A DNA stretch of 64,000 nucleotides from Chloroflexota bacterium. Its GTDB lineage: Bacteria > Chloroflexota > Limnocylindria > QHBO01. The stretch is from NCBI GenBank assembly GCA_039932375.1, contig JBDTQD010000002.1, positions 133 through 64,132 of the forward strand, in the 5' to 3' direction. A program made the translations under genes and the position numbers. The notes below the pieces were generated by a model. It was not told where the DNA came from and did no database searches. It saw only the letters and a program-made list of their open reading frames with translations. This document shows, one piece after another, positions 2,978 through 32,601 of the stretch (position 1 is its first letter; every line of letters starts with the position of its first letter).

Positions 2978-3054
2978 GGGCCCGTGGTGTAGCGGCCCAA
3001 CATGCCAGCCTGTCACGCTGGAGATCGCCGGTTCGAATCCGGTCGGGCCCGCCA
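2978..3054 (+). tRNA. tRNA-Asp (anticodon GTC)
   Basis: Cloverleaf: acceptor GGGCCCG/CGGGCCC, D-stem GUGU/ACAU, anticodon stem CCAGC/GCUGG with loop CUGUCAC, T-loop UUCGAAU, discriminator G, encoded CCA. Confidence 0.9.
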
Positions 3055-20465: not shown

Positions 20466-21290
20466 ATGTCGTGGCTATCCCGTCAGTTCTCAACGCGCGT
20501 CGTGGTCCTGATCCCGGTCGCCATCGCCATCAACATCGTGCTCGGCTATACCGTCCAGACCGTCCTCAAGCTGCCGATCTACCTGGACTCGATCGGGACC
20601 ATCCTGGTGGGCGTCCTGGCTGGACCGATTGCTGGCGCCGCCACCGGCGCAGCCTCGAACCTGATTTGGCAATACGCGCCGGGGATCGGCGGCGGGACGA
20701 TCGGGCCATTCGCGATTGTCGCAGGCGTCATCGGCTTCCTCGCCGGCGTGTGGGGCTACCTGGGCGTCTTCCGGCCGCGGCCGACGAGTGGAGCACGGCT
20801 ATGGCTGGCCGTAGTCGTCGGCGTGGCGATCATCCTGCTGCTCGCCTCGCGCATCTACAACAACCCCGCCTACACCGACCCGAACGTCGGGGGCTACCCG
20901 GATTGGGTCTTCACTGCCGCCATCGCGATCGCAGTGGTTGCGTCCTTCGCGGTGGCCGCGTTCATCCTGGTTCGTCGCGACGCGGCCGGCGCATGGGTGG
21001 CGGCAGCCGGCGCCCTGACCGGGATCGTGGCGGCCATCCTCTCTGCGCCGATCGCCGCATACGTCTTCGGCGGCGTAACGGGCTCCGGGACCGACCTGAT
21101 CGTGGCCGCGCTGCGCCAGGGTGGCGCCGACGTTTACAACGCGTCGCTCGGCCAGGGCCTCTTCAGCGACCCGATCGACAAGACGATCACCAGCTTCGTG
21201 GTCTTCATCGTGCTGGCCAGCCTCTCGGACCGCGTCCTCGCCCGCTTCCCCCTCGGCGAGCGGCTCGTGCGGCCTGCTCCAGCGGCCTGA
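20466..21290 (+). CDS. ECF transporter S (substrate-specific) component
   Basis: 6-7 TM, Gly/Ala-rich S-component-like N-terminus; GGAGG RBS; immediately precedes EcfT/EcfA/EcfA'. Confidence 0.7.
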   Translation: MSWLSRQFSTRVVVLIPVAIAINIVLGYTVQTVLKLPIYLDSIGTILVGVLAGPIAGAATGAASNLIWQYAPGIGGGTIGPFAIVAGVIGFLAGVWGYLGVFRPRPTSGARLWLAVVVGVAIILLLASRIYNNPAYTDPNVGGYPDWVFTAAIAIAVVASFAVAAFILVRRDAAGAWVAAAGALTGIVAAILSAPIAAYVFGGVTGSGTDLIVAALRQGGADVYNASLGQGLFSDPIDKTITSFVVFIVLASLSDRVLARFPLGERLVRPAPAA

Positions 21291-21305
21291 GCGCCAGCGG
21301 AGTCG

Positions 21306-22139
21306 GTGGCGAGGTCGGCGCAGATCATCTCGGGCTCCGCTGAGATCGACGTTCGGCTACCTGACTTCGTCCAGCGCCTGCCGGTTGGCACCTATCGGCG
21401 CCTGAACCCGACGACCAAGCTGGTCGTCGCCGTCAGCGAGGCGCTGGTCGCCTTCACGGTGCGCGGCTGGACGGGGCCGGTGGCGGTGCTCATCGTTCTC
21501 GCATTGACCGCCATCGCCGCCCGGACTGGCCGCGCCCTGCTCCCATTCCTGATCGCAACAATCCCGCTGACCGCGTCGATCGTCCTGGTCAACACCTTCC
21601 TGTTTCCCGGGGCGACCGATCCGATCTTCGGCATCGGTCCATTCACGCCGACCTGGACGGGCCTCGAGGCAGCCCTGCAGGCGACCCTGCGAGTGGTGGC
21701 CTTCGCGATGTCGGTGGCGATCCTGGTGCTGACGACCCGGCCGGACGATCTGGTCGGCGATCTCGAGCGACGCGGCGCGCCACGCGGCGTCACCTTCGTC
21801 ATCGGAGCCACCGTGCGCATGATCCCCCGCATCCTGCAGCGGGCAGGGGAGATCGCCGAGGCGCAACGCGCGAGGGGGCTTGACACCGAGGGGCGCATCT
21901 GGCGCCGATTGCGGGGCGTCCTGCCGCTGGCGGCGCCGCTCGTGTTCGGTTCACTGAACGAGGTCGAGGAGCAGACGATGGCCCTCGAGGCGCGCGCATT
22001 CTCGGCCCAGGGACGCCGCACGCCGCTCCGCCTCTTCCCCGATGACGGGGCGCAGCGGGCCTTACGTTGGACGCTCGTGACGGGAACGGCGGTCCTGATC
22101 GTGCTCTCCATCGTCGGTCGCCTCGCCTTCCTGCCATGA
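21306..22139 (+). CDS. ecfT: ECF transporter transmembrane component EcfT (CbiQ family)
   Basis: CbiQ/EcfT pattern (LNPTTKL, C-terminal ARG/AR motif). Confidence 0.8.
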   Translation: MARSAQIISGSAEIDVRLPDFVQRLPVGTYRRLNPTTKLVVAVSEALVAFTVRGWTGPVAVLIVLALTAIAARTGRALLPFLIATIPLTASIVLVNTFLFPGATDPIFGIGPFTPTWTGLEAALQATLRVVAFAMSVAILVLTTRPDDLVGDLERRGAPRGVTFVIGATVRMIPRILQRAGEIAEAQRARGLDTEGRIWRRLRGVLPLAAPLVFGSLNEVEEQTMALEARAFSAQGRRTPLRLFPDDGAQRALRWTLVTGTAVLIVLSIVGRLAFLP

Positions 22140-22155
22140 GCAAGGCAGCAGCCCG

Positions 22156-22971
22156 ATGACGCTGGCGCTGACGGGGGTGACCTACCGCTACCCCGGCATG
22201 ACCCGGCCGGCGCTGGTCGACGTGACCATCCGTGTCGAACCTGGCTCGGTGCTCGGCGTGGTCGGCGCCAACGATGCCGGCAAGTCGACGCTCTGCCTGG
22301 TGGCCGGCGGCCTCGCGCCGGCCACGATCGGTGGCAAGGTCGAGGGGCGGGTCGAGATCGACGGCGCTCCGACCGGCGACTGGCGGCCGTCGGACCTGGC
22401 CCAACGCTGTGGCATCCTCTTTCAGAACGCGGAGACGCAGCTCTCCGGCACAGCGGCGACCGTGTGGGAGGAGGTCGCCTTCGGGCCGCGCAACCTGTCG
22501 CTGCCCCTGCGCGAGGTTGCCGAACGGACGACGTGGGCACTGGACGTGATCGGCATCGAGCCGCTCGCGCCACGCGATCCGGGCCGCCTGTCGGGCGGCC
22601 AGGCTCAGCTAGTCGCGCTTGCCGCGGTCCTCGCCATGCGCCCTGCCTACCTGGTGCTGGACGAGCCGACGAGCCAGCTGGATCCCCAGGGCACGCAGGC
22701 CATCGGGAGCGCCCTCCGGCGCCTGGCGCACGAGACGGGCGTCGGCCTGCTCGTGGTCGAGCACAAGACCGACCTGCTGGCTTCGATCGCGGAGCAATGT
22801 GTCGTTCTCGTGGCGGGCAGCGTGGTGGCGGCGGGTCCGGTGACGACGGTCCTCGCCGATCCGCGCCTCGAGGCGTGGGGGATCGCGCCTCCCTCCGCGG
22901 TCCGCATCGCCCGCGCGGCGGAGCGGGCCGGGCTCCCCGAACAGGTGGTCGCGGCCATGACGTCGACATGA
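22156..22971 (+). CDS. ecfA1: ECF transporter ATPase EcfA1
   Basis: Walker A GANDAGKST, signature LSGGQAQ, Walker B LVLDEP. Confidence 0.85.
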   Translation: MTLALTGVTYRYPGMTRPALVDVTIRVEPGSVLGVVGANDAGKSTLCLVAGGLAPATIGGKVEGRVEIDGAPTGDWRPSDLAQRCGILFQNAETQLSGTAATVWEEVAFGPRNLSLPLREVAERTTWALDVIGIEPLAPRDPGRLSGGQAQLVALAAVLAMRPAYLVLDEPTSQLDPQGTQAIGSALRRLAHETGVGLLVVEHKTDLLASIAEQCVVLVAGSVVAAGPVTTVLADPRLEAWGIAPPSAVRIARAAERAGLPEQVVAAMTST

Positions 22972-23813
22972 GCGACCCCATCGTCGAGGCCGATGACCTC
23001 GTCTTTGTCTACCCCGGCGGCGTCCGCGCCCTCGACGGCATCGACCTGCGGATCAACGCCGGCGAGCGGGTCGCGATCATCGGCCAGAACGGATCGGGCA
23101 AGTCGACCCTCGTCCGTCATTTCGTCGGGCTGCTGCGCGCGACCGCCGGCGTGGTGCGCGTCGGCGGAGAGCCGATCGGACGGCGGCACGTCGCGGAATT
23201 GGCGCGCACGGTGGGGATTGCCTTTCAGAACCCGGACCGCCAGATCTTCGCGGCTCGGGTCCGCAATGAGGTCGCGTTCGGGCCGCGCAACCTGGGGCTG
23301 CGCGGCGCGGCCCTCGAACAACGGGTGCAGAGTGCGCTCGAGGCGGTCGGACTGGCGGGACGCGCCGATAGCAACCCGTACGACCTCGGCTACTCGCAGC
23401 GCAAGCTGCTGGCCCTGGCGTCGATCCTGGCCATGGGAGCGCCGCTGGTGGTCCTGGATGAGCCGACGACCGGGCAGGACGCGCGCGGCGTGCGGCGGGT
23501 GGCGACCGTTGTCGCCGAGCTTGCAGCCAAAGGGACGACGGTCGTCTCCATCAGCCACGACATGCGCTTTGTGGCGGAAACCGCCGGGCGCGTGCTGGTG
23601 ATGCGCGACGGGCGGATCGTGGACGACGGACCATCCGAGAGCGTGTTCGCCGAAGCACGCTGGCCGGTGCTCGAATCGACGTACCTGGAGCCGCCGCTCG
23701 CCGCGCGCGCAGGCGCGCGCCTGGGGCTTGGTTCTACGCCGACCGAGGCATCGCTGGTCGCGCGGGCCGTCGAGAAAGTCGAAGCGGAGGGCGGCTTCAG
23801 CGCCCCAGGTTGA
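22968..23813 (+). CDS. ecfA2: ECF transporter ATPase EcfA2
   Basis: Walker A GQNGSGKST; ATG overlaps the ecfA1 stop (ATGA). Confidence 0.85.
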   Translation: MSDPIVEADDLVFVYPGGVRALDGIDLRINAGERVAIIGQNGSGKSTLVRHFVGLLRATAGVVRVGGEPIGRRHVAELARTVGIAFQNPDRQIFAARVRNEVAFGPRNLGLRGAALEQRVQSALEAVGLAGRADSNPYDLGYSQRKLLALASILAMGAPLVVLDEPTTGQDARGVRRVATVVAELAAKGTTVVSISHDMRFVAETAGRVLVMRDGRIVDDGPSESVFAEARWPVLESTYLEPPLAARAGARLGLGSTPTEASLVARAVEKVEAEGGFSAPG

Positions 23814-24786
23814 CCGCTCGCGTCAGGCGCTGCAGCAGTTCCGCGCGCATCCCCTCCGGATCGATGGCAGTGGCAACGCTCACCTCGGGGCGCTCGACGG
23901 CGTCGAACCGGTACAGGCTGCCCGCCAGGCGTGGATCGTTGCCGGTGTCGCACGCCAGCCTGGCGTCGACCGACTCCGTCACCAGGTCCGGCCGCAACAG
24001 GGAGCCGATCAGCGTCACGGGGTCGTGCAGGTAGCAGCCGTCGAGATCGTCCGCTGCGCGATGGAATGCCACGTAAAAGCGAATGGCGCCTCGTACGACG
24101 GAAGCAAGGTAGGTATCCGGCAGAACTTCGAGATCGTCGAGGGTGAAGACCACGTCCTGGGTCGCGTCCAACGGGAAGATGCGCGACAGGGCACCCGCGG
24201 CCAGGCAGGCCTCCGCGGCCTCGGGGTCGACGCAGGCGTTCCACTCGCCGGTCTCGGTGGTATTGCCGCGCTCCTCGAGCGCCCCTCCCATCCACACGAC
24301 CTCCCTCGTGCCCGCGCGCAGGTCGACGCCATTCAGGGCAGCGGCGGCCAGGTTGGTCAACGGACCGAGCGCCACAACGGTCAGCTCGCCCGGATGCCTG
24401 TCGATGTGCGCCGCCAGGTAGCGCGGGGCGGGGACGGGGGTGAAGTCGGTCGCACCGAGCTCAGGATCCTCTCCGGTCAGCTCCACGTAGCCGGTGCCGG
24501 TCGGCCCATGCGTGTCCGGCGCAGTTCGCAGGCGACGGTGGAGCGGCCTCCCTGCGCCGATGCTGACCGGCACATCGCCGCGCCCCACCATGCGCAGGAT
24601 CTTGCCGGTGTTGCGCGCGACGTGGTGGATCTCGACGTTGCCCGCCACGCAGGTCACGCCGCGCAGGTTGAGCTCCGGGGCGGTGGCGGCGATCAGCAGC
24701 GCCACCATGTCGTCGATCCCGGTGTCGACGTCCAGGATGACCGGGCGGCGCTCGGCGTCGGAAGTGCTCGCCTGCATCGGCGCCAT
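23797..24786 (-). CDS. Nucleoside hydrolase (IunH/RihA family)
   Basis: N-terminal DVDTGIDD aspartate cluster; about 330 aa. Confidence 0.85.
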   Translation of the reverse strand: MAPMQASTSDAERRPVILDVDTGIDDMVALLIAATAPELNLRGVTCVAGNVEIHHVARNTGKILRMVGRGDVPVSIGAGRPLHRRLRTAPDTHGPTGTGYVELTGEDPELGATDFTPVPAPRYLAAHIDRHPGELTVVALGPLTNLAAAALNGVDLRAGTREVVWMGGALEERGNTTETGEWNACVDPEAAEACLAAGALSRIFPLDATQDVVFTLDDLEVLPDTYLASVVRGAIRFYVAFHRAADDLDGCYLHDPVTLIGSLLRPDLVTESVDARLACDTGNDPRLAGSLYRFDAVERPEVSVATAIDPEGMRAELLQRLTRAVNLGR

Positions 24787-24787
24787 C

Positions 24788-25699
24788 CTACGCCGCGGGC
24801 CCCGGCCAGCCGCCGGCGCGACCCACCCTGCTCGTCACCTCGCGACCCAGCTGCGCCGCGATGAACCGCGCGGCGGCCAGGACGCCATCCAGGTCGACCT
24901 CGGTGCGCACTCCCTCGCGATCGAGGAGATAGACCAGGTCCTCGGTCGCCAGGTTGCCGGCCGAACCAGGCGCGTACGGCGAGCCGCCGGTGCCGCCGGT
25001 CGAGGAGTCGAACGCGCGGATCCCGACCTCCATGCCGGCGACCACGTTGGCGAGCGCCGTTCCACGGGTGTCGTGCAGGTGCAACGCCACGACATCTGCG
25101 CCGATGCCGGCCGCGCTCAGCGCTCCGACCACACGCCGCACGTCGAGCGGCGTGGCCACGCCGACAGTGTCGCTGATCGACAGTTCGTCGACGCCGAGCT
25201 GCAGCAGCCGCTCGCTGAGGCTCACCACCGCCAGCTCGTCGACCTCACCGCTGTACGGGCAGCCGAAGGCGACGCTGACGTAGGCGCGCACCCACATCCC
25301 GCGCTCGCGGGCGACCGCCGCCACGGGGGCGAAGGCCGCCAGCGACTCGTCGATCGTCATCCGGATATTTGCCATGGCATAAGCCTCGGAGGCAGCCGTG
25401 AAGAGGCAGATGGCATCCGCCCCGGCCGCCACCGCCCGCTCCATGCCGCGCTGGTTGGGCACCAGCACGGGATAGCGAACGCCGGGACGGCGCTCGAGGC
25501 CCTCCATCAGCTGATCGGCATCGGCCAGCTGGGGAATCGCATCGGGTCGCACGAACGAGGTCGCCTCGACCTCGCGCAGCCCGGCATCGGCCAGCAGGGA
25601 GATGAAGCGCAGCTTGGCCTCGGTCGGCACGATCGTCGCTTCGGCCTGCAGGCCGTCGCGCGGTCCCACCTCGTAGATGCGAACCTCGGGGCGGGTCAT
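24788..25699 (-). CDS. Hydroxymethylglutaryl-CoA lyase
   Basis: HMGL-like TIM-barrel motifs (EVGPRDGLQ, HLHDTRG). Confidence 0.85.
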   Translation of the reverse strand: MTRPEVRIYEVGPRDGLQAEATIVPTEAKLRFISLLADAGLREVEATSFVRPDAIPQLADADQLMEGLERRPGVRYPVLVPNQRGMERAVAAGADAICLFTAASEAYAMANIRMTIDESLAAFAPVAAVARERGMWVRAYVSVAFGCPYSGEVDELAVVSLSERLLQLGVDELSISDTVGVATPLDVRRVVGALSAAGIGADVVALHLHDTRGTALANVVAGMEVGIRAFDSSTGGTGGSPYAPGSAGNLATEDLVYLLDREGVRTEVDLDGVLAAARFIAAQLGREVTSRVGRAGGWPGPAA

Positions 25700-25711: not shown

Positions 25712-27709
25712 TTAGGCCGATACCTCCGCCAACACGTCTCCGCGCTGAACCTGTTGGCCGACGGCCACGGCCATGCGAGTCACCGTCCCAGCCAGCGGCG
25801 TGACCACGGCGTGCTCCATCTTCATGGCCTCGATTACGACCAGCGCCTGGTGTGCCAGGACCGACGCGCCCTCAGGCGCGTGGACCGCGATCACTCGGCC
25901 GGGCATCGGGGCGATGAGTGCTGCACGGCCACCGGCATGATCGGCTGCCTGGCGCACCGCCTCTTCGACGCTCGGCGACATGGCCAGCGACAGCTCCAGC
26001 GACTGCCCCTCGACGTCGACGTGCGCGACCCCGCCCTCGACAGCGATCTCTGCTTGGCTCGGGCCGCCAAGCTCGACGCGTCGCTCCTCGCTGCCCGAGC
26101 GCATGCGTACCGCAGCAGGAGCCGCCGCGCGCCATCCGCCTCCCCAGGGCCCCCGCTGACCGGCATGCACGAGCGCCGCAGCGGCCGCCTGCCAGGCGGT
26201 GTCGCCGGGAACGGGGGCCGGCGGCAGGCTCATGTGCGCGAGGGTATCGGTCCGGACCTGGCCATCGCGCGTGACGGGCTGATCGAGCAGCCAGCGCAGG
26301 AAGCGCAGGTTGGTGCGCACGCCGAGCACCAGTGTTTCGTCGAGCGCGGCTCCCAGGCGTCCCAGCGCCTCGTCCCGCGTGCGGCCGTGCGCGATCAGCT
26401 TGGCGAGGAGCGGGTCGTATCGGTCCGAGACGAGGTCGCCCTCGTGCAGGGCCGTGTCGATGCGGACGCCATCGGGCCAGCGCAGGCGGAGCACTCGACC
26501 GGAGGCCGGCAGGAATCCTGCATCCGGATCCTCGGCGTACACGCGCGCCTCGATGGCGTGGCCGGCGAATCGCACCGCCGACTGGACGAGACCGAGCGGC
26601 TCCCCCGCCGCGATCCGCAGCTGGTCGGCGACCAGGTCGCGGCCCGTGACCGCCTCGGTGACGGGATGCTCGACCTGCAGGCGAGTGTTCATCTCAACGA
26701 AGAAGAACTCGCCGGCATTGGTCAGCAGGAATTCGACCGTCCCGGCATTCGTGTAGCCGACCGCGGCAGCCACCGTGAGTGCTGCTTCGCCCATCCGGAC
26801 TCGCAGCTCCGGCATGACCGATGGCGCGGGCGACTCCTCGATGACCTTCTGGTTACGCCGCTGCGTCGAGCAGTCGCGCTCGCCAAGGTGGACCCCGTGG
26901 CCGTGGTTGTCGCAGAGGAGCTGGATCTCGACGTGCCGCGCACCCTCAAGCAGGCGCTCCAGGATCAGCCGGTCGTCGCCAAATGCCCGCTGCGCCTCGC
27001 GGCGAGCGGCCGCCAATTCGTCTGTGAGGCTGGAAAGATCGCGGATGATACGCATCCCCTTGCCGCCGCCACCCGCCGACGGCTTGACCAGTAGCGGCAG
27101 CCCGATCCGCGCCGCCTCAGTTGTCAAGGTCGCGTCGTCCGTTGCCTCTCCGTCGTAGCCGGGGACCACCGGAACGCCATGCGCCCCTGCGATCCGTCGT
27201 GCCGCCGCCTTGTCGCCCATTGCCGCGATGGCCGTCGAGGGCGGCCCAACCCACGTCAGCCCTGCACGCTCGACGGCCGCGGCGAAGTCGGCGTTCTCGG
27301 CCAGGAAGCCATAGCCGGGATGGATTGCATCTGCCCCGGAGCCTCGCGCGGCGTCCAGGATCGAGTCGGCATCCAGGTAGTCGCTGATGCGAGCGGCCAG
27401 GTCGACCCCATCGGGAGGCACGTCGTCCGACGCATGGACCGCGATGCTGCGGATCCCCAGCTGGCGAGCCGTTCGTGCGATGCGGCCTACGATCTCGCCC
27501 CGGTTGGCGATGAGGAGCGCGCGGATGGCTCGGCCGCTGGCCCGCTCCGGCGCTTCGGTGACGCGGCCGAGCGACGAGCGCGACACCCGCACCCGTCCGC
27601 CGACGCGGATCGCCGGGAGGCGCCCGTCGGCGACCCAGCGCTGGACGGTCCGAACGGTAACGCCCAGTTCATCCGCCACCTGGTGTGGGGTGAGCGTCTC
27701 ATCGGGCAT
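25712..27709 (-). CDS. Biotin carboxylase + BCCP (methylcrotonyl/acyl-CoA carboxylase alpha) with N-terminal HTH_17 (MerR/excisionase-type) extension
   Basis: Residues 1-45 LTPHQVADELGVTVRTVQRWVADGRLPAIRVGGRVRV are HTH-like; then ALLIANRGEIVGRIARTARQLGI biotin carboxylase; C-terminal EAMKME biotinyl motif. Confidence 0.85.
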   Translation of the reverse strand: MPDETLTPHQVADELGVTVRTVQRWVADGRLPAIRVGGRVRVSRSSLGRVTEAPERASGRAIRALLIANRGEIVGRIARTARQLGIRSIAVHASDDVPPDGVDLAARISDYLDADSILDAARGSGADAIHPGYGFLAENADFAAAVERAGLTWVGPPSTAIAAMGDKAAARRIAGAHGVPVVPGYDGEATDDATLTTEAARIGLPLLVKPSAGGGGKGMRIIRDLSSLTDELAAARREAQRAFGDDRLILERLLEGARHVEIQLLCDNHGHGVHLGERDCSTQRRNQKVIEESPAPSVMPELRVRMGEAALTVAAAVGYTNAGTVEFLLTNAGEFFFVEMNTRLQVEHPVTEAVTGRDLVADQLRIAAGEPLGLVQSAVRFAGHAIEARVYAEDPDAGFLPASGRVLRLRWPDGVRIDTALHEGDLVSDRYDPLLAKLIAHGRTRDEALGRLGAALDETLVLGVRTNLRFLRWLLDQPVTRDGQVRTDTLAHMSLPPAPVPGDTAWQAAAAALVHAGQRGPWGGGWRAAAPAAVRMRSGSEERRVELGGPSQAEIAVEGGVAHVDVEGQSLELSLAMSPSVEEAVRQAADHAGGRAALIAPMPGRVIAVHAPEGASVLAHQALVVIEAMKMEHAVVTPLAGTVTRMAVAVGQQVQRGDVLAEVSA

Positions 27710-27734
27710 GTCGCGATTGTCGCAGAGGAGAGTG

Positions 27735-28526
27735 CTACTCCCGGCGCCAGGATGGTGGTCGCTTCTCCAGGAAGGCCCCGAGCCCCTCCTGTCCCTCGGC
27801 CGAGACGCGCTGTCGAGCTGCCCGCTGCACGGTGAGCGCCAGCGCGTCGCCTCGCGTCAGGCCGCGTTGCTCACGGATCACTGCCTTCGCGTTCCGCGTG
27901 GCCTCCGGTCCGGAGGCGAGGACCTCCTCGACAACCGCGTCGACCCGGGCATGCAGTGCGGCCTCGTCAGCAACGACCTCGGAAACCAGCCCGATGCGCT
28001 GCGCCCGCTCCGACCCGAAGCGCTCGCCGGTCACGAAGAGCGCCCGGGCAGCCCCCTCCCCGATGCGCGGGAGCACGAACGGGCTGATCACGGCGGGCAT
28101 CAGGCCGAGCTTCGTCTCGGTGAAGCCGAAGGTGGCATCCGCCGTGGCGAGGGTGATGTCCGCCACGCAGCAGAGCGCCATGCCGCCGCCCAGCGCCGCG
28201 CCGTGGACCGCGGCGATCACCGGCACGGGACACTCGTCGACGGTGAGCAGCATCTCCTGCAGGCGCCCCGCATCGGCCTCGTTCTCCTCCAGGGAGAGGG
28301 CGATCGCGGCGCGCTGCCACTCGATATCGGCCCCAGCGCAGAAGGCCTTCCCGTCGCCCGCAAGGACTACCGCCCGGAGGGTCCCTGGAACCTCGACGCT
28401 GAGCCGCTGGAAGGCGTCGCGCAGCGCGGCGATCAGCTCGGCGTTGAAGGCGTTGCGCACCTCCGGTCGCGCCAGCGTGACACGGACCACGGCGCCCGAG
28501 CGCTCGACGCGCAGCACGTTGCTCAC
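27735..28526 (-). CDS. Enoyl-CoA hydratase (methylglutaconyl-CoA hydratase-like)
   Basis: Crotonase-fold motifs (GDGKAFCAGADI, FGFTETKLGLMP). Confidence 0.8.
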   Translation of the reverse strand: MSNVLRVERSGAVVRVTLARPEVRNAFNAELIAALRDAFQRLSVEVPGTLRAVVLAGDGKAFCAGADIEWQRAAIALSLEENEADAGRLQEMLLTVDECPVPVIAAVHGAALGGGMALCCVADITLATADATFGFTETKLGLMPAVISPFVLPRIGEGAARALFVTGERFGSERAQRIGLVSEVVADEAALHARVDAVVEEVLASGPEATRNAKAVIREQRGLTRGDALALTVQRAARQRVSAEGQEGLGAFLEKRPPSWRRE

Positions 28527-29329
28527 GATCGGCCCTTGCGATAGAAGGGGTCGCTGACCGCCCGGACCGAAGCCAGCAGCGGCTCCTCCAGCCAGACCAC
28601 GTCGGTGCCGTCGGGAACGTCGACCACCGCCGACGCGCCCTCGCCGCCGAGGAGGCCGAGCATCAGGTGACGGGAGCCATCGCTCTCCGACTCGACCAGC
28701 CAGGCGGCCTCGACATCGGTCTGGCGCAGGGCGTCGCGCAGGGGCACCTCGAGGGCCATCGCCGTCGGGCCGGCCAGGCGCAGTCGGATCGAGCGGCTCA
28801 CCGAGGGCGGCGCGATCGGCTCATCGGTACCGGGCAGGCGACCGGCGGCCAGGGCGGCAAGCTCGTTGGCCTCGAAGCGATAGGGGATCGGCCCAGCCGG
28901 ATCCATGATCGCCGGCACGCCCGCCGCGGCCATGTTGGCGACCGCGATGCGCGCCGGGAGCGGCAGGCTGGCGGTGCCACGCGGCGACCAGGCCGAGAGC
29001 GCGGCCACCGACGCGAAGCAGACGCTGGTCGGCCGCCCATCGGCGTCGGCAGCGAGCAGCACGCTCACCTCCACCTCCTCCTCGTCGTTGACCGCCGCCT
29101 CGAGCGCCGACTTCGCCTCGTCGCCATGCTCGGGCGGGACCGGCAGCAGCAGCGTGCCGCTCATCAGGGCCCGATAGAAGGCGTCGAGCGCCTGGCGTCC
29201 GGGATCGCCGCTGGCCTCCGCATCCCGGGCGGCGAGCATCGCCTCGAAGATGGCGAGCGAGCTCTCCTCGAGGGCGCCACTCGGCGCCGAGGGGTCATGC
29301 GAGCCGGGGGCTGGGCGGTCCAGGACCAT
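28523..29329 (-). CDS. Hypothetical protein, SseB-like (LLLPVP motif)
   Basis: Weak resemblance to the SseB N-domain; GTGA coupling to the hydratase. Confidence 0.45.
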   Translation of the reverse strand: MVLDRPAPGSHDPSAPSGALEESSLAIFEAMLAARDAEASGDPGRQALDAFYRALMSGTLLLPVPPEHGDEAKSALEAAVNDEEEVEVSVLLAADADGRPTSVCFASVAALSAWSPRGTASLPLPARIAVANMAAAGVPAIMDPAGPIPYRFEANELAALAAGRLPGTDEPIAPPSVSRSIRLRLAGPTAMALEVPLRDALRQTDVEAAWLVESESDGSRHLMLGLLGGEGASAVVDVPDGTDVVWLEEPLLASVRAVSDPFYRKGRS

Positions 29330-29370
29330 TCCTGGCAGCCTACCACCGGCCTCGGGGTACGATGCGCGCG

Positions 29371-30141
29371 ATGGCCAGCGGGATCGACCACATCGCGATC
29401 GCCGCGGCTGACCCCGACGCCGCGGCCGTGGAGTTGACCGAGCGGGTCGGGCTGGCCTTCACAGCGGGCGGGCATCACCCGGGCCTCGGAACCTTCAACC
29501 GTATCGCCTTCCTGGGCGACTCATACCTGGAGCTGATCGGCGTGGAGGATGCGACCCTTGCCGCGAATTGGGCGGTCGGGGCGGCCGCGGTGCATGCCCT
29601 GGAACACGGCGGCGGGTTCGCGACCTACGGGCTGGTCGACGATGCGATTCGTACCAGCGTCGCACGGCTGCAGGTCAACGGCAGCAGCATCGGCCCGCTG
29701 GTTACCGGCCGCCGCGAGCTCCCCGACGGCGAACGGGTCACGTGGTGGACTGCCGCGCCGCCCGTGCTCGGGCCGGATAAGCCGCCCTTCCTGATCAAGC
29801 ACCTGTACGCCGGTGCGGAATGGGGGGCCGATGCATTGGCCGCACGGCGGGCGTACGTGCACCCGATCGGATCGCCAGTCATTCTCCGGCAGCTCCAGAT
29901 CGCCACAGCCGCTCCGCAAGGGTTGGCGGCCGATTGCTACCGGGACGTGGATCTCGAATTCTGGGAGGTGGCATCGGTCGCGGTCTGCTCGATCGGACCG
30001 CAGACAATCCGGCTGGTGCCCGCGGCCAGCGGTAGGACGACGGTCGTCATCGGTGCGGCCGTCGAGGCGACGCGCACCATTAACGCGCTTGGCGTGCGCT
30101 TCGAGGTGGAACCGGTCGACTTTCCGCTGCCCTTGGCCTGA
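29371..30141 (+). CDS. Glyoxalase-like (VOC) domain protein
   Basis: IDHIAIAAAD N-terminus; TACGAT 9 nt upstream of ATG 29371 (alternative ATG at 29362). Confidence 0.6.
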   Translation: MASGIDHIAIAAADPDAAAVELTERVGLAFTAGGHHPGLGTFNRIAFLGDSYLELIGVEDATLAANWAVGAAAVHALEHGGGFATYGLVDDAIRTSVARLQVNGSSIGPLVTGRRELPDGERVTWWTAAPPVLGPDKPPFLIKHLYAGAEWGADALAARRAYVHPIGSPVILRQLQIATAAPQGLAADCYRDVDLEFWEVASVAVCSIGPQTIRLVPAASGRTTVVIGAAVEATRTINALGVRFEVEPVDFPLPLA

Positions 30142-30151
30142 GCCTCGCCGC

Positions 30152-31777
30152 CTACATCCGGAACACGCCGAAGCGAGTCTCGGGGATCTCGGAATTCAGC
30201 GCGGCGCTGATTCCAATCGCCAGCACACGACGCGTGTCTACGGGATCGATCACGCCGTCGTCCCACAGTCGTGCGGTCGAGTAGTAGGGCGAGCCCTGCC
30301 GCTCGTACTCGGCCAGGATCCGGGCCTCGAAGGCGTCGCGCTCCTCGTCCGAGGCCAAGTCGCCGCTCACCGTGGAGAGGACACGGGCCGCCTGCGCCCC
30401 GCCCATGACGCTGATGCGCGCGTTCGGCCACATCCACAGCTGCCGCGGCGAGTAGGCGCGTCCCGCCATCCCGTAGTTCCCGGCTCCGAACGAGCCGCCG
30501 ATGATGACCGTGAACTTCGGGACCGCCGTGGTGGCAACCGCGCTCACCAGCTTTGCGCCGTCCTTGGCGATCCCGCGCGCCTCGTACTCCCGCCCGACCA
30601 TGAAGCCGGTGATGTTCTGGAGGAAGACGAGCGGGATCCTCCGCTGCGAGGCGAGCTCGATGAAGTGGGTCCCCTTCAGCGCGGACTCGCTGAAGAGGAT
30701 CCCGTTGTTGCCCAGGATCCCGACCGGATACCCCTCGATCCGCGCGAAGCCGGTCACCAGCGTCTCGCCGTAGCGCTCCTTGAACTCGTGGAACTCGCTC
30801 CCGTCGACCAGCCGCGCGATCACCTCGCGCACGTCGTAGGTGATCCGCGAGTCGGCTGGGATGACGCCGTACAGCTCCTCCGGATTGACTGATGGCGGCG
30901 CCGGCTCGCTCCGCTCCCAAGGCGCCTCGGGCTTGCGCCAGGCGAGGCTGCGCACGATCTCGCGACCGATCGCCAGGGCGTGCTCGTCGTCGAGCGCGTA
31001 ATGGTCGGCTACCCCGCTCGTGACGGTGTGGACCTCGGCGCCCCCCAGCTCTTCCGCGCTCACCTCCTCGCCGGTGGCGGCCTTCACCAGTGGCGGCCCG
31101 CCCAGGAAGATGGTGCCGGTCCCCTTGACGATCACCGTCTCGTCGGACATGGCCGGCACGTACGCCCCGCCGGCCGTCGACGAGCCCATCACCAGCGCGA
31201 TCTGCGGGATGCCGCGGGCGGAGAGCTGCGCCTGGTTGTAGAAGATCCGGCCGAAATGCTCACGATCGGGGAAGACCTCGTCCTGGAGTGGCAGATAGGC
31301 GCCGCCCGAATCGACCAGGTAGAGGCACGGCAACCGGTTCTCGAGGGCGATCTCCTGGGCGCGCAGGTGCTTCTTGACGGTGATCGGGAAGTAGGTCCCG
31401 CCTTTGACGGTCGCGTCGTTGGCGACCAAGACGCACTCCACCCCCTCCACCAGCCCGATGCCGGTCACGATCCCCGCCGCCGGCCCGTCCCCGTCGTACA
31501 GGCCATCGGCCGCCAGCGCGGAAAGCTCCAGGAACGCGCTGCCGGGATCTATCAGCCGCTCGATCCGCTCGCGCACGGGTAGCTTGCCGCGTTCGCGGTG
31601 ACGGGCGATCGATCGTTCGTCGCCGCCCGCCCCGCGCTCGCTCACTAGGCGTGTCCGCGCCCGCAGCTCATCCACGAGGGCGCGCATGGCGGCCGCATTC
31701 GCGGCGAAGGCAGGCGAGGCGGGATCGAGGGCGGAGCGCAGGAGGGCCATCGGTGCGGCGATTATCGCCGCTGGCAA
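30152..31777 (-). CDS. Methylcrotonyl-CoA carboxylase beta subunit (carboxyltransferase)
   Basis: Carboxyl-transferase N and C domains; about 530 aa; start may be 31750. Confidence 0.9.
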
Positions 31778-32311: not shown

Positions 32312-32601
32312 CGCCAACGCGGCTGAGCTGGAGGTCCCTCCCCCAGCAGACCCGCGACGCCAGTTCCAGAAGGTCATGCCCGCATGGTGGAGCCCAGCGG
32401 TGACGGGCGGAAGGGACACGAGAGTACTAGGCAGGACTGTGCCGCTCGATCCCGGACCCCCGGACCCCCGGACCCTGCGCAGACGTGTCAATTGATCTGA
32501 ACAGTTGCACGCCACAGCCCCGCCTACAATTCCGAGCCGATGAGACTCACGATCTACGCCGACGTCGACGACGGCAGCGGCCTGGCTTGACCCAGCAGCC
32601 G

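What the first reader, a model, noticed from the sequence alone, without database searches (positions are those of the whole stretch)
25712..27709. Biotin carboxylase/BCCP subunit carrying an N-terminal MerR/excisionase-type helix-turn-helix
About 45 residues (LTPHQVADELGVTVRTVQRWVADGRLPAIRVGGRVRV) with the HTH_17 signature are fused in-frame ahead of a complete biotin carboxylase-BCCP protein. There is no stop codon between them and no alternative start before the ANRGEI motif. A DNA-binding domain on a carboxylase subunit hints at direct autoregulation of the leucine-catabolic operon (hydratase - carboxylase alpha - HMG-CoA lyase - nucleoside hydrolase). Alternatively it is an unannotated fusion class.
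Basis: seen in the sequence. Interest (0 to 1): 0.55.

Follow-up and report, generated by a model that had tools for sequence, protein, structure and literature searches.

The report
Carboxylase subunit with DNA-binding head
In a class of uncultured Chloroflexota, the biotin-carrying subunit of a leucine-breakdown enzyme always carries a small DNA-binding domain, and its gene always sits behind a conserved repeat motif, so the enzyme probably controls its own gene.

Summary
Window 25712-27709 (-) encodes 665 aa: HTH_17/excisionase wHTH (res 6-47), a variable low-confidence linker (48-61), then an apparently intact biotin carboxylase plus BCCP. The closest solved structures are methylcrotonyl-CoA carboxylase alpha, and they align only from residue ~60.

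The fusion is not an assembly error. All 119 further best full-length relatives (70-81% identity), from many independent metagenomes, encode it. So do clades at ~45-55% identity. Nearly all named sources are Chloroflexota / Candidatus Limnocylindria.

New here: the 14-mer GCGACAATCGCGAC (27710-27723) sits just 5' of the start codon. It is invariant in 8 loci and differs by 1-3 bases in 5 more. Synonymous sites are almost randomised in these loci. It overlaps an inferred -10/transcription start, and reads as 9-bp-spaced GCGAC direct repeats. An inverted second copy lies ~138 bp downstream (27571-27584). Different amino acids encode that copy in different clades.

The HTH most resembles Xis, BldC and RacA. 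BldC binds 9-bp direct repeats.

Best reading (about 0.55): a trigger enzyme that represses its own promoter. No DNA binding has been shown. I found no paper describing it. New variant of a known kind.

The parts
25712..27709 (-). Gene for the 665-aa HTH_17 + biotin carboxylase + BCCP protein (methylcrotonyl-CoA carboxylase alpha-type subunit)
   Evidence: ORF and translation. Pfam domains. Best solved relatives are MCC alpha 3u9s and 9yx0, aligned from residue 60 on. Identical to NCBI MAG protein P0121.
27569..27694 (-). HTH_17 / excisionase-type winged helix-turn-helix domain (residues 6-47)
   Evidence: PF12728 45.5 bits, TIGR01764 45.6 bits. AF2 fold is beta-alpha-alpha-beta-beta-alpha, pLDDT about 80-90. 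Foldseek top hits are Pukovnik Xis, BldC-DNA and RacA-DNA, TM 0.7-0.8. R20, Q23, R24, W25 and G37 are invariant and T21, V22 and R39 nearly invariant in 44 sequences.
27527..27568 (-). Linker (residues 48-61), variable in sequence and length
   Evidence: The alignment shows indels and no conservation here. AF2 pLDDT is below 50 for residues 51-58.
26237..27526 (-). Biotin carboxylase (residues 62-491); conserved motifs GGGGKGM, ERDCS, EMNTRLQVEHPVTE present
   Evidence: Pfam Biotin_carb_N, CPSase_L_D2 and Biotin_carb_C. Invariant columns. pLDDT above 90.
25724..25915 (-). Biotinyl (BCCP) domain with the EAMKME motif (K630)
   Evidence: Pfam Biotin_lipoyl 599-662. E627-E632 are invariant. The 17-nt block ATGAAGATGGAGCACGC at 25809-25825 is shared by six loci.
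27710..27723 (-). O1: GCGACAATCGCGAC, candidate operator. Two GCGAC pentamers 9 bp apart, abutting the start codon and containing the inferred -10 hexamer GACAAT (27716-27721). With the preceding T (27724) it forms an extended -10, TGcGACAAT.
   Evidence: Exact in the window, L001, L002, L081-083, L166 and L005; 1-3 changes in L004, L084, L003, L165 and L167. Only 10-12% of third codon positions are invariant in the same loci, and the longest invariant coding run is 9 nt. It is the only non-coding block of 14 nt or more shared across 21 kb of synteny. Promoter geometry fits in 12 of 13 loci.
27571..27584 (+). O2: GCGACGAGCGCGAC, an inverted second copy 139 bp downstream of O1, inside the codons for HTH residues 42-47. 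Candidate auxiliary operator.
   Evidence: Found at 136-151 bp from O1 with 0-1 mismatch in 10 of 13 loci. A further locus (L084) has 2 mismatches; L165 and L167 have no copy there. The background rate for 1 mismatch or fewer in a random 260-nt window is 6.7%. Different amino acids and a different codon register encode it in different clades: VSRSSL versus VAFDAL/VASDAL.
27735..28526 (-). Enoyl-CoA hydratase (candidate methylglutaconyl-CoA hydratase), directly upstream
   Evidence: Pfam ECH_1. Conserved synteny.
28523..29329 (-). SseB-family protein; its stop codon overlaps the start codon of the hydratase gene
   Evidence: Pfam SseB. Synteny.
24788..25699 (-). HMG-CoA lyase, directly downstream. 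It stays linked to the fusion gene in all clades.
   Evidence: Pfam HMGL-like. Synteny.
23797..24786 (-). Inosine-uridine-preferring nucleoside hydrolase, last gene of the run
   Evidence: Pfam IU_nuc_hydro. Synteny in the window clade.
30152..31777 (-). Carboxyltransferase (MCC beta-type subunit). It is separated from the alpha gene by an opposite-strand gene.
   Evidence: Pfam Carboxyl_trans. Best solved relative is MCC beta 3u9r, E = 4e-233.
29362..30141 (+). Glyoxalase_3 gene on the opposite strand, interrupting the cluster; position conserved
   Evidence: Pfam. Synteny.

Best explanation
This is the alpha subunit (biotin carboxylase + BCCP) of a methylcrotonyl-CoA carboxylase. [quoted passage not shown]

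Proposed mechanism:
- The HTH domains bind the 9-bp-spaced GCGAC direct repeats of O1. O1 overlaps the -10 element and the transcription start of the gene's own promoter, and most loci appear to make a leaderless or near-leaderless mRNA.
- In most clades the HTH probably also binds an inverted repeat set, O2, about 138 bp downstream.
- Binding represses transcription of the alpha gene and of the HMG-CoA lyase (and nucleoside hydrolase) genes behind it.
- The carboxylase body supplies the oligomerisation that a lone HTH lacks. It could also couple DNA binding to assembly with the beta subunit, to biotinylation, or to substrate state.

Shown: the fusion, its conservation, the fold, the conserved DNA elements and where they lie.
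Inferred: the promoter and transcription start, that this HTH (not another factor) binds these sites, the sign of regulation, and any signal.
For: 1. The fusion is real and under selection.
- All 119 further best full-length hits encode it.
- It is also present in clades at about 45-55% identity.
- The HTH is conserved while the linker is not.

2. The domain looks like a DNA binder.
- It passes the HTH_17 and TIGR01764 cut-offs.
- The predicted fold matches Xis, BldC-DNA and RacA-DNA structures.
- BldC contacts DNA through K26 and R30 on its recognition helix and H46 in its wing (PMC5859096).
- By my own counting from the printed alignment, these align with R20, R24 and R39 here. R20 and R24 are invariant and R39 nearly so.

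3. O1 is conserved far beyond neutral expectation.
- The 14 nt are invariant in 8 loci, where only about 10-12% of third codon positions are invariant.
- It is the only non-coding block of 14 nt or more shared across 21 kb of synteny.

4. O1 travels with the fusion gene, not with the upstream gene.
- It is kept when 230 nt or 1.4 kb are inserted upstream.
- It is kept when the upstream gene is different.

5. O1 overlaps an inferred promoter in 12 of 13 loci.
- In L165 and L167 the -10 has moved one repeat downstream, yet both GCGAC pentamers are kept.
- This argues that they are more than a -10 element.

6. The 9-bp direct-repeat layout matches the way the HTH-only protein BldC binds DNA: AATTNNNN(C) units, head to tail.

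7. O2 recurs at a fixed distance and is encoded by different amino acids in different clades.

8. Controls.
- None of the 75 non-fusion biotin carboxylase loci then held contains the exact 14-mer.
- None of the degenerate-motif hits in 155 non-fusion loci lies at a biotin carboxylase start.
- No other DNA-binding gene is conserved in the neighbourhood.
Against: - No binding experiment exists. The link between this HTH and these sites rests on co-occurrence within one lineage, so shared ancestry inflates the counts.
- O1 could be conserved as a promoter plus the site of an unlinked regulator.
- The transcription start and promoter are inferred from sequence only. A strict sigma-70 consensus scan finds nothing here.
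- O2 is missing in the L165/L167 clade. It lies in coding sequence with a strong TCG codon preference, so it is less secure than O1.
- The BldC family model scores well below its cut-off (35.8 against 77).
- The repeat unit here is GC-rich, unlike BldC's AT-rich unit.
- Only one O1 site occurs in the 64-kb window, so a regulon could not be tested.
Confidence: 0.55

Rival explanations
1. The HTH does bind DNA, but O1 and O2 are not its sites. In this reading O1 is simply a conserved promoter/discriminator, or the site of an unlinked regulator. The HTH then serves another purpose, such as tethering the carboxylase to the nucleoid, or binding DNA non-specifically or at distant targets.
For: - The O1 sequence supplies the -10 element and the region up to the start codon, which could by itself explain part of the conservation.
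- RacA, one of the closest structural relatives, is a chromosome-anchoring protein rather than a gene regulator.
- No regulon could be examined. Only 64 kb of this genome, plus windows of about 20 kb elsewhere, were available.
Against: - Promoters do not normally keep 14 of 14 bases invariant when synonymous sites are randomised.
- Both GCGAC pentamers persist when the -10 shifts by one repeat.
- O2 repeats the motif inside coding sequence, where no promoter is expected.
- The only DNA-binding domain that always accompanies the motif is the fused HTH.
Confidence: 0.22
2. The HTH binds O1 but activates transcription, as classical MerR regulators do by remodelling a promoter. Binding would be switched on by a leucine-pathway signal sensed by the enzyme.
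For: - The window clade lacks a recognisable -35 element, which is typical of activator-dependent promoters.
- The domain is MerR-related.
- From my own knowledge (Kazakov et al. 2009, J Bacteriol): in Proteobacteria the liu genes are controlled by the MerR-family protein LiuR.
Against: - The site covers the -10 and the transcription start, which is a repressor position.
- Where a -35 exists the spacer is an optimal 17 bp, not the 19-20 bp that MerR-type activation corrects.
- There is no coiled-coil dimerisation helix, and Pfam MerR scores below its cut-off.
- Most window-clade loci have an extended -10 (TGn), which can function without a -35.
Confidence: 0.12
3. The fusion is an annotation or assembly artefact. 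The real carboxylase would start at an internal GTG, and the HTH would be a separate or untranslated remnant.
For: - In-frame GTG codons exist at V40 and V42.
- One database entry (P0227) is called from that position.
- Several long-read MAG contigs show the gene broken by frameshifts.
Against: - More than a hundred independent assemblies have the uninterrupted frame.
- The HTH shows protein-level conservation with invariant functional residues, next to a variable linker.
- A start at V40 or V42 would cut the wing of a folded domain.
- The P0227 locus still encodes the whole HTH.
- The broken copies sit in contigs where neighbouring genes are fragmented too.
Confidence: 0.03

Closest known systems
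BirA, group II biotin protein ligase / bio operon repressor
   Same: A biotin-metabolism enzyme with an N-terminal wHTH on a linker that represses transcription at an operator overlapping a promoter. It is a classic bifunctional enzyme-regulator (PMC4016012 abstract, seen).
   Different: - Different enzyme (ligase, not carboxylase) and a different HTH family.
- BirA binds an inverted repeat as a dimer induced by biotinoyl-AMP.
- Here the sites are direct repeats, the enzyme is expected to be a large oligomer, and the signal is unknown.
BldC (Streptomyces), MerR-like HTH-only regulator
   Same: - Closest characterised structural relative of the HTH, with rmsd 1.4-1.9 A and TM 0.7-0.8.
- It has no coiled coil and no effector domain.
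- It binds 9-bp direct repeats head to tail as cooperative multimers (PMC5859096). The 9-bp GCGAC spacing found here matches that layout.
- The DNA-contacting basic residues are at equivalent positions.
   Different: - BldC is a free 68-residue protein with an AT-rich unit, AATTNNNN(C). Here the HTH is fused to a roughly 600-residue enzyme and the unit is GC-rich.
- The NCBIfam BldC model scores 35.8 against a cut-off of 77, so this is not a BldC family member.
E. coli AccB autoregulation of accBC
   Same: A BCCP-bearing carboxylase component is reported to feed back on transcription of its own operon (PMC11602165, citing James & Cronan 2004).
   Different: AccB has no recognisable DNA-binding motif, as that paper states, and its mechanism is unresolved. 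Here a canonical DNA-binding domain is part of the subunit.
PutA (proline utilisation A)
   Same: [quoted passage not shown]
   Different: PutA uses a ribbon-helix-helix domain. Its switch is membrane association driven by flavin reduction. The chemistry is unrelated.
LiuR, MerR-family regulator of leucine/isovalerate utilisation genes in Proteobacteria
   Different: LiuR is a separate full-length MerR protein with a dimerisation helix that binds a palindrome. Here only the wHTH is present and it is part of the enzyme.
Methylcrotonyl-CoA carboxylase alpha subunits with solved structures (P. aeruginosa 3u9s, human 8j4z, Leishmania 8f3d and others)
   Same: Same domain order from residue 60 on (BC, BT region, BCCP); best sequence matches. 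The partner beta subunit best matches MCC beta 3u9r.
   Different: In none of them does a meaningful alignment reach the HTH. The alignments start at query residue about 60. The human chain aligns from residue 30, through its presequence region.

Membership tests
HTH_17 / excisionase-family DNA-binding domain (PF12728, TIGR01764) | Profile match above the curated cut-off | tested here: met
   PF12728 45.5 bits against 27. TIGR01764 45.6 bits against 28.8 in the full protein, and 50.9 bits on residues 1-58 alone.
HTH_17 / excisionase-family DNA-binding domain (PF12728, TIGR01764) | Winged helix-turn-helix fold of the Xis/MerR type | tested here: met
   AF2 gives beta-alpha-alpha-beta-beta-alpha with pLDDT 80-92. 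Foldseek top hits are 4j2n Xis, 6ama/6amk BldC and 5i44 RacA.
HTH_17 / excisionase-family DNA-binding domain (PF12728, TIGR01764) | Sequence-specific DNA binding | not testable with these tools
   Indirect evidence only: invariant basic residues at BldC's contact positions and conserved candidate sites.
BldC family | NCBIfam HTH_BldC model above its cut-off; small stand-alone protein | tested here: not met
   35.8 bits against a cut-off of 77. The domain is fused to a roughly 600-residue enzyme.
BldC family | Binds tandem 9-bp direct repeats head to tail | tested here: inconclusive
   The candidate sites have GCGAC pentamers at 9-bp spacing, with 2-3 units. Binding was not tested.
Classical MerR regulators | wHTH followed by a long coiled-coil dimerisation helix and a C-terminal effector domain; Pfam MerR or MerR_1 above cut-off | tested here: not met
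   MerR 21.8 bits against 28.2; MerR_1 16.8 against 21.6. After helix 3 comes a disordered linker and then the carboxylase.
Methylcrotonyl-CoA carboxylase alpha subunit | BC N, ATP-grasp and C domains plus a BCCP domain with the AMKM biotinylation motif | tested here: met
   Pfam domains. The GGGGKGM, ERDCS, EMNTRLQVEHPVTE and EAMKME motifs are conserved.
Methylcrotonyl-CoA carboxylase alpha subunit | Closest to characterised MCC rather than ACC, PCC or PC; partner beta subunit of MCC type | tested here: met
   Among the top PDB hits is MCC alpha 3u9s, 518 bits. The beta subunit best matches MCC beta 3u9r at 778 bits, against true PCC beta at about 250 bits.
Methylcrotonyl-CoA carboxylase alpha subunit | Genomic association with the other leucine-catabolic steps | tested here: met
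   Enoyl-CoA hydratase upstream and HMG-CoA lyase downstream in the window clade. HMG-CoA lyase stays linked in all clades. No isovaleryl-CoA dehydrogenase was seen in the cluster.
Methylcrotonyl-CoA carboxylase alpha subunit | Carboxylation of 3-methylcrotonyl-CoA | not testable with these tools
   Needs an enzyme assay.
Trigger enzymes (enzyme-transcription factor fusions such as BirA and PutA) | An apparently intact enzyme covalently joined to a DNA-binding domain | tested here: met
Trigger enzymes (enzyme-transcription factor fusions such as BirA and PutA) | Operator at the promoter of its own or its pathway's genes | tested here: inconclusive
   Conserved O1 over the inferred -10 and transcription start, plus O2. 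Neither occupancy nor the transcription start has been measured.
Trigger enzymes (enzyme-transcription factor fusions such as BirA and PutA) | DNA binding switched by the enzyme's substrate, cofactor or assembly state | not testable with these tools
   No data.

The most novel reading that the evidence does not exclude
The assembled carboxylase itself is the repressor. Under the alpha6-beta6 architecture of solved MCCs, three HTH domains at each end of the particle would bind the three-unit direct-repeat arrays O1 and O2. These arrays lie in opposite orientation about 13 helical turns apart. Binding both would loop the DNA across the enzyme's own promoter. Occupancy would depend on alpha-beta assembly, on biotinylation of the BCCP domain, or on methylcrotonyl-CoA turnover. 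That would make this the first biotin-dependent carboxylase shown to act directly as a transcription factor. It would also be a natural example of a metabolic megacomplex used as the oligomerisation scaffold for BldC-type HTH domains.
Probability: 0.25. Interest if true: 0.8.

Novelty: new variant of a known kind. Interest (0 to 1): 0.62.

Why it matters
Enzymes that double as transcription factors (BirA, PutA) are few, and they have taught a great deal about how metabolism talks to gene expression. A biotin-dependent carboxylase subunit with a built-in DNA-binding domain has not, as far as I could find, been described.

Feedback by BCCP-bearing subunits on their own genes has been proposed for E. 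coli AccB, but without any DNA-binding motif to explain it (PMC11602165). This lineage offers a version in which both protein and DNA partners are identifiable from sequence:
- a 45-residue HTH;
- a 14-bp site at the promoter;
- a second site about 138 bp away.
The idea can therefore be tested directly with a gel shift and a reporter.

It also extends the BldC-style 'HTH-only, direct-repeat' binding mode to a case where a large enzyme may supply the multimerisation. Finally, it gives a concrete regulatory handle in Candidatus Limnocylindria, an abundant uncultured freshwater and soil class.

Tried and rejected
1. The metagenome-contig scan with an alignment of fusion N-termini was wasted. L091, L095 and L106, which seemed to match the HTH region, have stops or unrelated sequence upstream.

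2. In the genome-contig scan, extended matches in Inhella, Methyloversatilis and an Actinomycetota MAG (L021, L049, L028) are spurious: there are stops upstream and no HTH.

3. RNA element hypothesis for the 14-mer.
- Folding of -50..+50 in five loci gives z-scores from -1.0 to +0.6.
- The tiny GCGA/UCGC hairpin is broken in L165, L167 and L003.
- Rfam finds nothing there.
- Rejected.

4. A stand-alone HTH ancestor next to a carboxylase gene. The short, highly similar proteins from the representative search (P0246, P0254, P0257, P0260, P0328) have frameshifted or chimeric tails and look like fragments. None was found.

5. An 'HTH-less' natural variant, P0227. Its DNA still encodes the HTH; the ATG is changed to AGG and the gene call slid to an internal GTG.

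6. A strict sigma-70 consensus scan of 27400-29600 finds no promoter. The promoter inference instead rests on an extended -10 or a TTGnnn-17-bp geometry across loci.

7. A regulon search. No further O1-like site lies near the carboxyltransferase, sseB or other gene starts in the window. The 13/14 copy at 20709-20722 lies inside an ECF S-component coding region and is not shared by other loci, so it is treated as chance.

8. I first dismissed the inverted copy at 27571-27584 as a by-product of VSRSSL codons. I revised this after finding it in clades with different residues and a different codon register.

9. Literature searches for 'HTH_17 + carboxylase' and 'Limnocylindria + leucine', and a multi-term search on HTH/biotin carboxylase fusions, found no description. 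The Legionella MCC preprint's 'helix-turn-helix' is a structural motif in the beta subunit and is unrelated.
Full report
**1. The observation**

Window 25712..27709 on the minus strand is a single 665-codon ORF with an ATG start.

Pfam domains:
- HTH_17, residues 6-47: 45.5 bits, gathering cut-off 27.
- Biotin_carb_N, 62-161.
- CPSase_L_D2, 166-373.
- Biotin_carb_C, 387-491.
- Biotin_lipoyl, 599-662.

NCBIfam's excisionase-family model TIGR01764 also passes its cut-off.

One detail is wrong. In-frame GTG codons encode V40 and V42, so an alternative start is formally available.

**2. Is the fusion real?**

Yes.
- The identical protein is in an NCBI Chloroflexota MAG (P0121).
- Of the other 119 best full-length relatives (70-81% identity, from JGI, ENA and NCBI assemblies), 118 carry PF12728 together with the carboxylase domains.
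- The single exception, P0227, still encodes the whole HTH in its DNA. Its ATG has become AGG and the gene call slid to the internal GTG.
- Fusions also occur in more distant clusters at about 45-55% identity.
- Where sources give names, they are almost all Chloroflexota or Candidatus Limnocylindria, a class of Chloroflexota.
- A pattern-limited scan of GTDB species representatives found fusions only in Chloroflexota (L001-L005). Apparent matches elsewhere were spurious.

In a 44-sequence alignment, P8, A12, G16, R20, Q23, R24, W25 and G37 are invariant, and T21, V22, R39 and R41 nearly so. Residues 48-61 vary in both sequence and length. This is the pattern of a functional domain on a flexible tether.

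AlphaFold2 agrees:
- Residues 5-50 fold as beta-alpha-alpha-beta-beta-alpha, with pLDDT about 72-92.
- Residues 51-58 fall below 50.
- The carboxylase body is above 90.

**3. What the enzyme is**

- The glycine-rich loop, the ERDCS and EMNTRLQVEHPVTE motifs, and the EAMKME biotinylation motif are all conserved. The enzyme therefore looks intact rather than a degenerate sensor.
- The best solved relatives are methylcrotonyl-CoA carboxylase alpha subunits (3u9s, 9yx0). They align only from query residue about 60.
- The nearby carboxyltransferase (30152-31777) best matches MCC beta 3u9r (E = 4e-233), far above true propionyl-CoA carboxylase beta subunits.
- The gene order is DUF6812, carboxyltransferase, Glyoxalase_3 (opposite strand), SseB, enoyl-CoA hydratase, HTH-alpha, HMG-CoA lyase, nucleoside hydrolase. 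It is conserved in the window clade.
- In distant clades the upstream genes differ, but HMG-CoA lyase stays directly downstream.

**4. A conserved DNA element at the gene's 5' end (O1)**

Reading the upstream regions of distant fusion loci showed the same 14-mer, GCGACAATCGCGAC. Its state in the 13 fusion loci is as follows:

| Loci | Motif | Position relative to the start codon |
|---|---|---|
| window (27710-27723), L001, L002, L081, L082, L083 | exact | ends at -1 of the ATG |
| L166 | exact | abuts a GTG start |
| L005 | exact | 4 nt before the ATG |
| L004 | GCGACGATCGCGAC | 4 nt before the ATG |
| L084 | GCGACACTCGCGAC | at the lost ATG (now AGG) |
| L003 | GCGACAATCACGCC | 17 nt before the ATG |
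| L165, L167 | GCGACAAACGCGAC | about 12 nt before the probable TTG start in L165; start not resolved in L167 |

Some database gene calls that run too far upstream translate the motif as CDNRD or SDNRD. This is further, independent evidence for it.

How strong is the conservation?
- Among the loci with the exact motif, only 12% (7 loci) or 10% (8 loci) of third codon positions are invariant.
- The longest invariant run in the first 600 nt of coding sequence is 9 nt.
- Across about 21 kb of shared synteny, only six blocks of 14 nt or more are identical in the window and five other loci. Five encode top-conserved protein motifs, such as the MKMEHA of the biotin site. The sixth is O1, the only non-coding one.
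- None of the 75 non-fusion carboxylase loci then held contains the exact 14-mer.
- None of the degenerate-motif hits in 155 non-fusion loci lies at a carboxylase start.

O1 follows the fusion gene rather than its upstream neighbour:
- It is kept when 230 nt (L081) or 1.4 kb (L084) are inserted upstream.
- It is kept when the upstream gene is unrelated (L003, L005, L165).

**5. The inferred promoter**

O1 contains GACAAT, which fits the xAxxxT pattern of a -10 hexamer. The promoter geometry by locus:

| Loci | Geometry |
|---|---|
| 8 loci, including the window | TG-n precedes the hexamer, giving an extended -10 (TGcGACAAT) |
| L003, L004, L005 | TTGnnn exactly 17 bp upstream |
| L165, L167 | perfect TTGACA 17 bp upstream of GACATT, the hexamer formed by the second pentamer |

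Transcription would then start about 7 nt after the hexamer. In the window clade that is the A of the ATG, giving a leaderless mRNA. In L004 and L005 it leaves a 4-nt leader. In L003 it leaves a 17-nt leader with a GGGGAG Shine-Dalgarno sequence. All of this is inference from sequence, and a strict consensus scan finds nothing.

In L165 and L167 the -10 has moved by one 9-bp unit, yet both GCGAC pentamers are still kept. This suggests the pentamers are conserved for a reason beyond being a -10 element.

**6. Repeat structure and a second site (O2)**

O1 reads as GCGAC pentamers 9 bp apart. A weaker third unit follows at the same spacing: CCGAY across codons 2-3 in the window clade, and GTGAC in L165.

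A second full copy, GCGACGAGCGCGAC, lies in inverted orientation at window 27571-27584, 139 bp downstream.

I first took O2 for a by-product of the VSRSSL codons. However:
- It recurs 136-151 bp from O1 with 0-1 mismatch in 10 of 13 loci. The background rate for 1 mismatch or fewer anywhere in a random 260-nt window is 6.7%.
- In L003 and L005 the same DNA motif is encoded by different residues (VAFDAL, VASDAL) in a different codon register. In L004 the motif is also present, but that contig is frameshifted at this point.
- In L003 and L005 it extends to three 9-bp-spaced units.
- The three serine codons in the window clade are TCG in 23 of 24 cases, against about 50% TCG usage overall.

O2 is absent in L165 and L167. 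I rate O2 as probable and O1 as secure.

**7. What the HTH resembles**

- By sequence, the nearest solved proteins are mycobacteriophage Pukovnik Xis, RacA, BldC and the wHTH of terminase small subunits.
- By predicted fold, the top matches are Xis, BldC-DNA complexes and RacA-DNA complexes.
- BldC is an HTH-only MerR relative that binds 9-bp direct repeats head to tail as cooperative multimers.
- It contacts DNA through K26 and R30 on the recognition helix and H46 in the wing (PMC5859096).
- By my own counting from the alignment, these positions correspond to R20, R24 and R39 here.

The domain is not a BldC family member (35.8 bits against a cut-off of 77). It is not a classical MerR either: there is no coiled coil and the Pfam MerR score is below its cut-off.

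**8. Mechanism proposed**

The alpha subunit is a trigger enzyme. Its HTH domains bind the GCGAC arrays over its own -10 and transcription start, and probably at O2. This would repress the alpha gene, the HMG-CoA lyase gene and, in this clade, the nucleoside hydrolase gene.

A lone HTH of this type needs multimerisation, which the carboxylase body could supply. Solved MCCs are alpha6-beta6 (names of the entries; the architecture itself is from my own knowledge).

A plausible rationale is dosage control of the BCCP-bearing subunit relative to beta. The beta gene lies in a separate transcription unit here, behind an opposite-strand gene. E. coli AccB has likewise been proposed to autoregulate accBC, though it has no DNA-binding motif (PMC11602165).

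The signal, the sign of regulation and the binding itself are all untested.

**9. Alternatives**

- O1 might be a promoter plus the site of an unlinked factor, with the HTH doing something else.
- The HTH might activate rather than repress.
- The artefact reading is essentially excluded.
- An RNA-structure role for the 14-mer is not supported.

**10. Novelty**

Pipelines already name these proteins 'excisionase family DNA-binding protein' or 'biotin carboxylase N-terminal domain-containing protein'. The architecture is therefore in databases, but I found no paper on it.

It is a new variant of a known kind, the enzyme-regulator fusion. It comes with a specific and cheaply testable protein-DNA pair.

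Noticed in passing
L081:8746-8980: A roughly 230-nt non-coding insertion lies between the hydratase stop and O1 in one close relative. It is absent from the window and other loci. There is no Rfam match. It could be a small mobile element or a structured RNA.
   Followed up: partly
L084:1122-2474: A 1.4-kb insertion lies between the hydratase gene and the fusion gene. It carries two ORFs (116 and 171 aa) with no Pfam hits. In the same contig the fusion's ATG is AGG and O1 has one change.
   Followed up: partly
window 29362-30141 (+) and 28523-29329 (-): A Glyoxalase_3 gene on the opposite strand, and an SseB-family gene whose stop codon overlaps the hydratase start codon, are conserved parts of this carboxylase cluster. 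Neither has an obvious role in leucine catabolism. Only 32 bp separate their divergent starts.
   Followed up: no
window 32358-32371 (-): The 14-nt block TTCTGGAACTGGCG is identical in six loci. It lies inside the ORF upstream of the carboxyltransferase, which is DUF6812 in relatives. It is as conserved as the biotinylation motif.
   Followed up: no
window 20466-23813 (+): This stretch encodes an ECF-type transporter module: a membrane S-like component, CbiQ, and two ABC ATPases. In the window and close relatives it lies right beside the nucleoside hydrolase that ends the carboxylase gene run. The substrate is unknown.
   Followed up: no
window 20709-20722 (-): A 13/14 copy of the O1 motif (GCGACAATCGCGAA) lies inside the coding region of the ECF S-like component. 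It is not shared by related loci and is probably chance.
   Followed up: partly
P0249, P0250, P0269, P0304, P0308 (representative search): These proteins have five to seven tandem HTH_17 repeats, and P0249 has a C-terminal hydrophobic region. They scored against the HTH query. This is a multi-HTH architecture that I did not pursue.
   Followed up: no
L004, L165, L166, L167: Long-read MAG contigs (MFD and ERZ250395xx assemblies) show the fusion gene and its neighbours chopped into several ORFs by frameshifts. Fragmentary 'short' homologues in the protein databases mostly come from such contigs, or from contig ends.
   Followed up: yes
P0008, P0019, P0449: A few partial fusion proteins are labelled Methylomirabilota or Egibacteraceae (Actinomycetota) by NCBI. 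This is either mis-binning or a wider distribution of the fusion.
   Followed up: no
window 2978-3051 (+): A tRNA gene is the only Rfam match at gathering threshold in the window.
   Followed up: no
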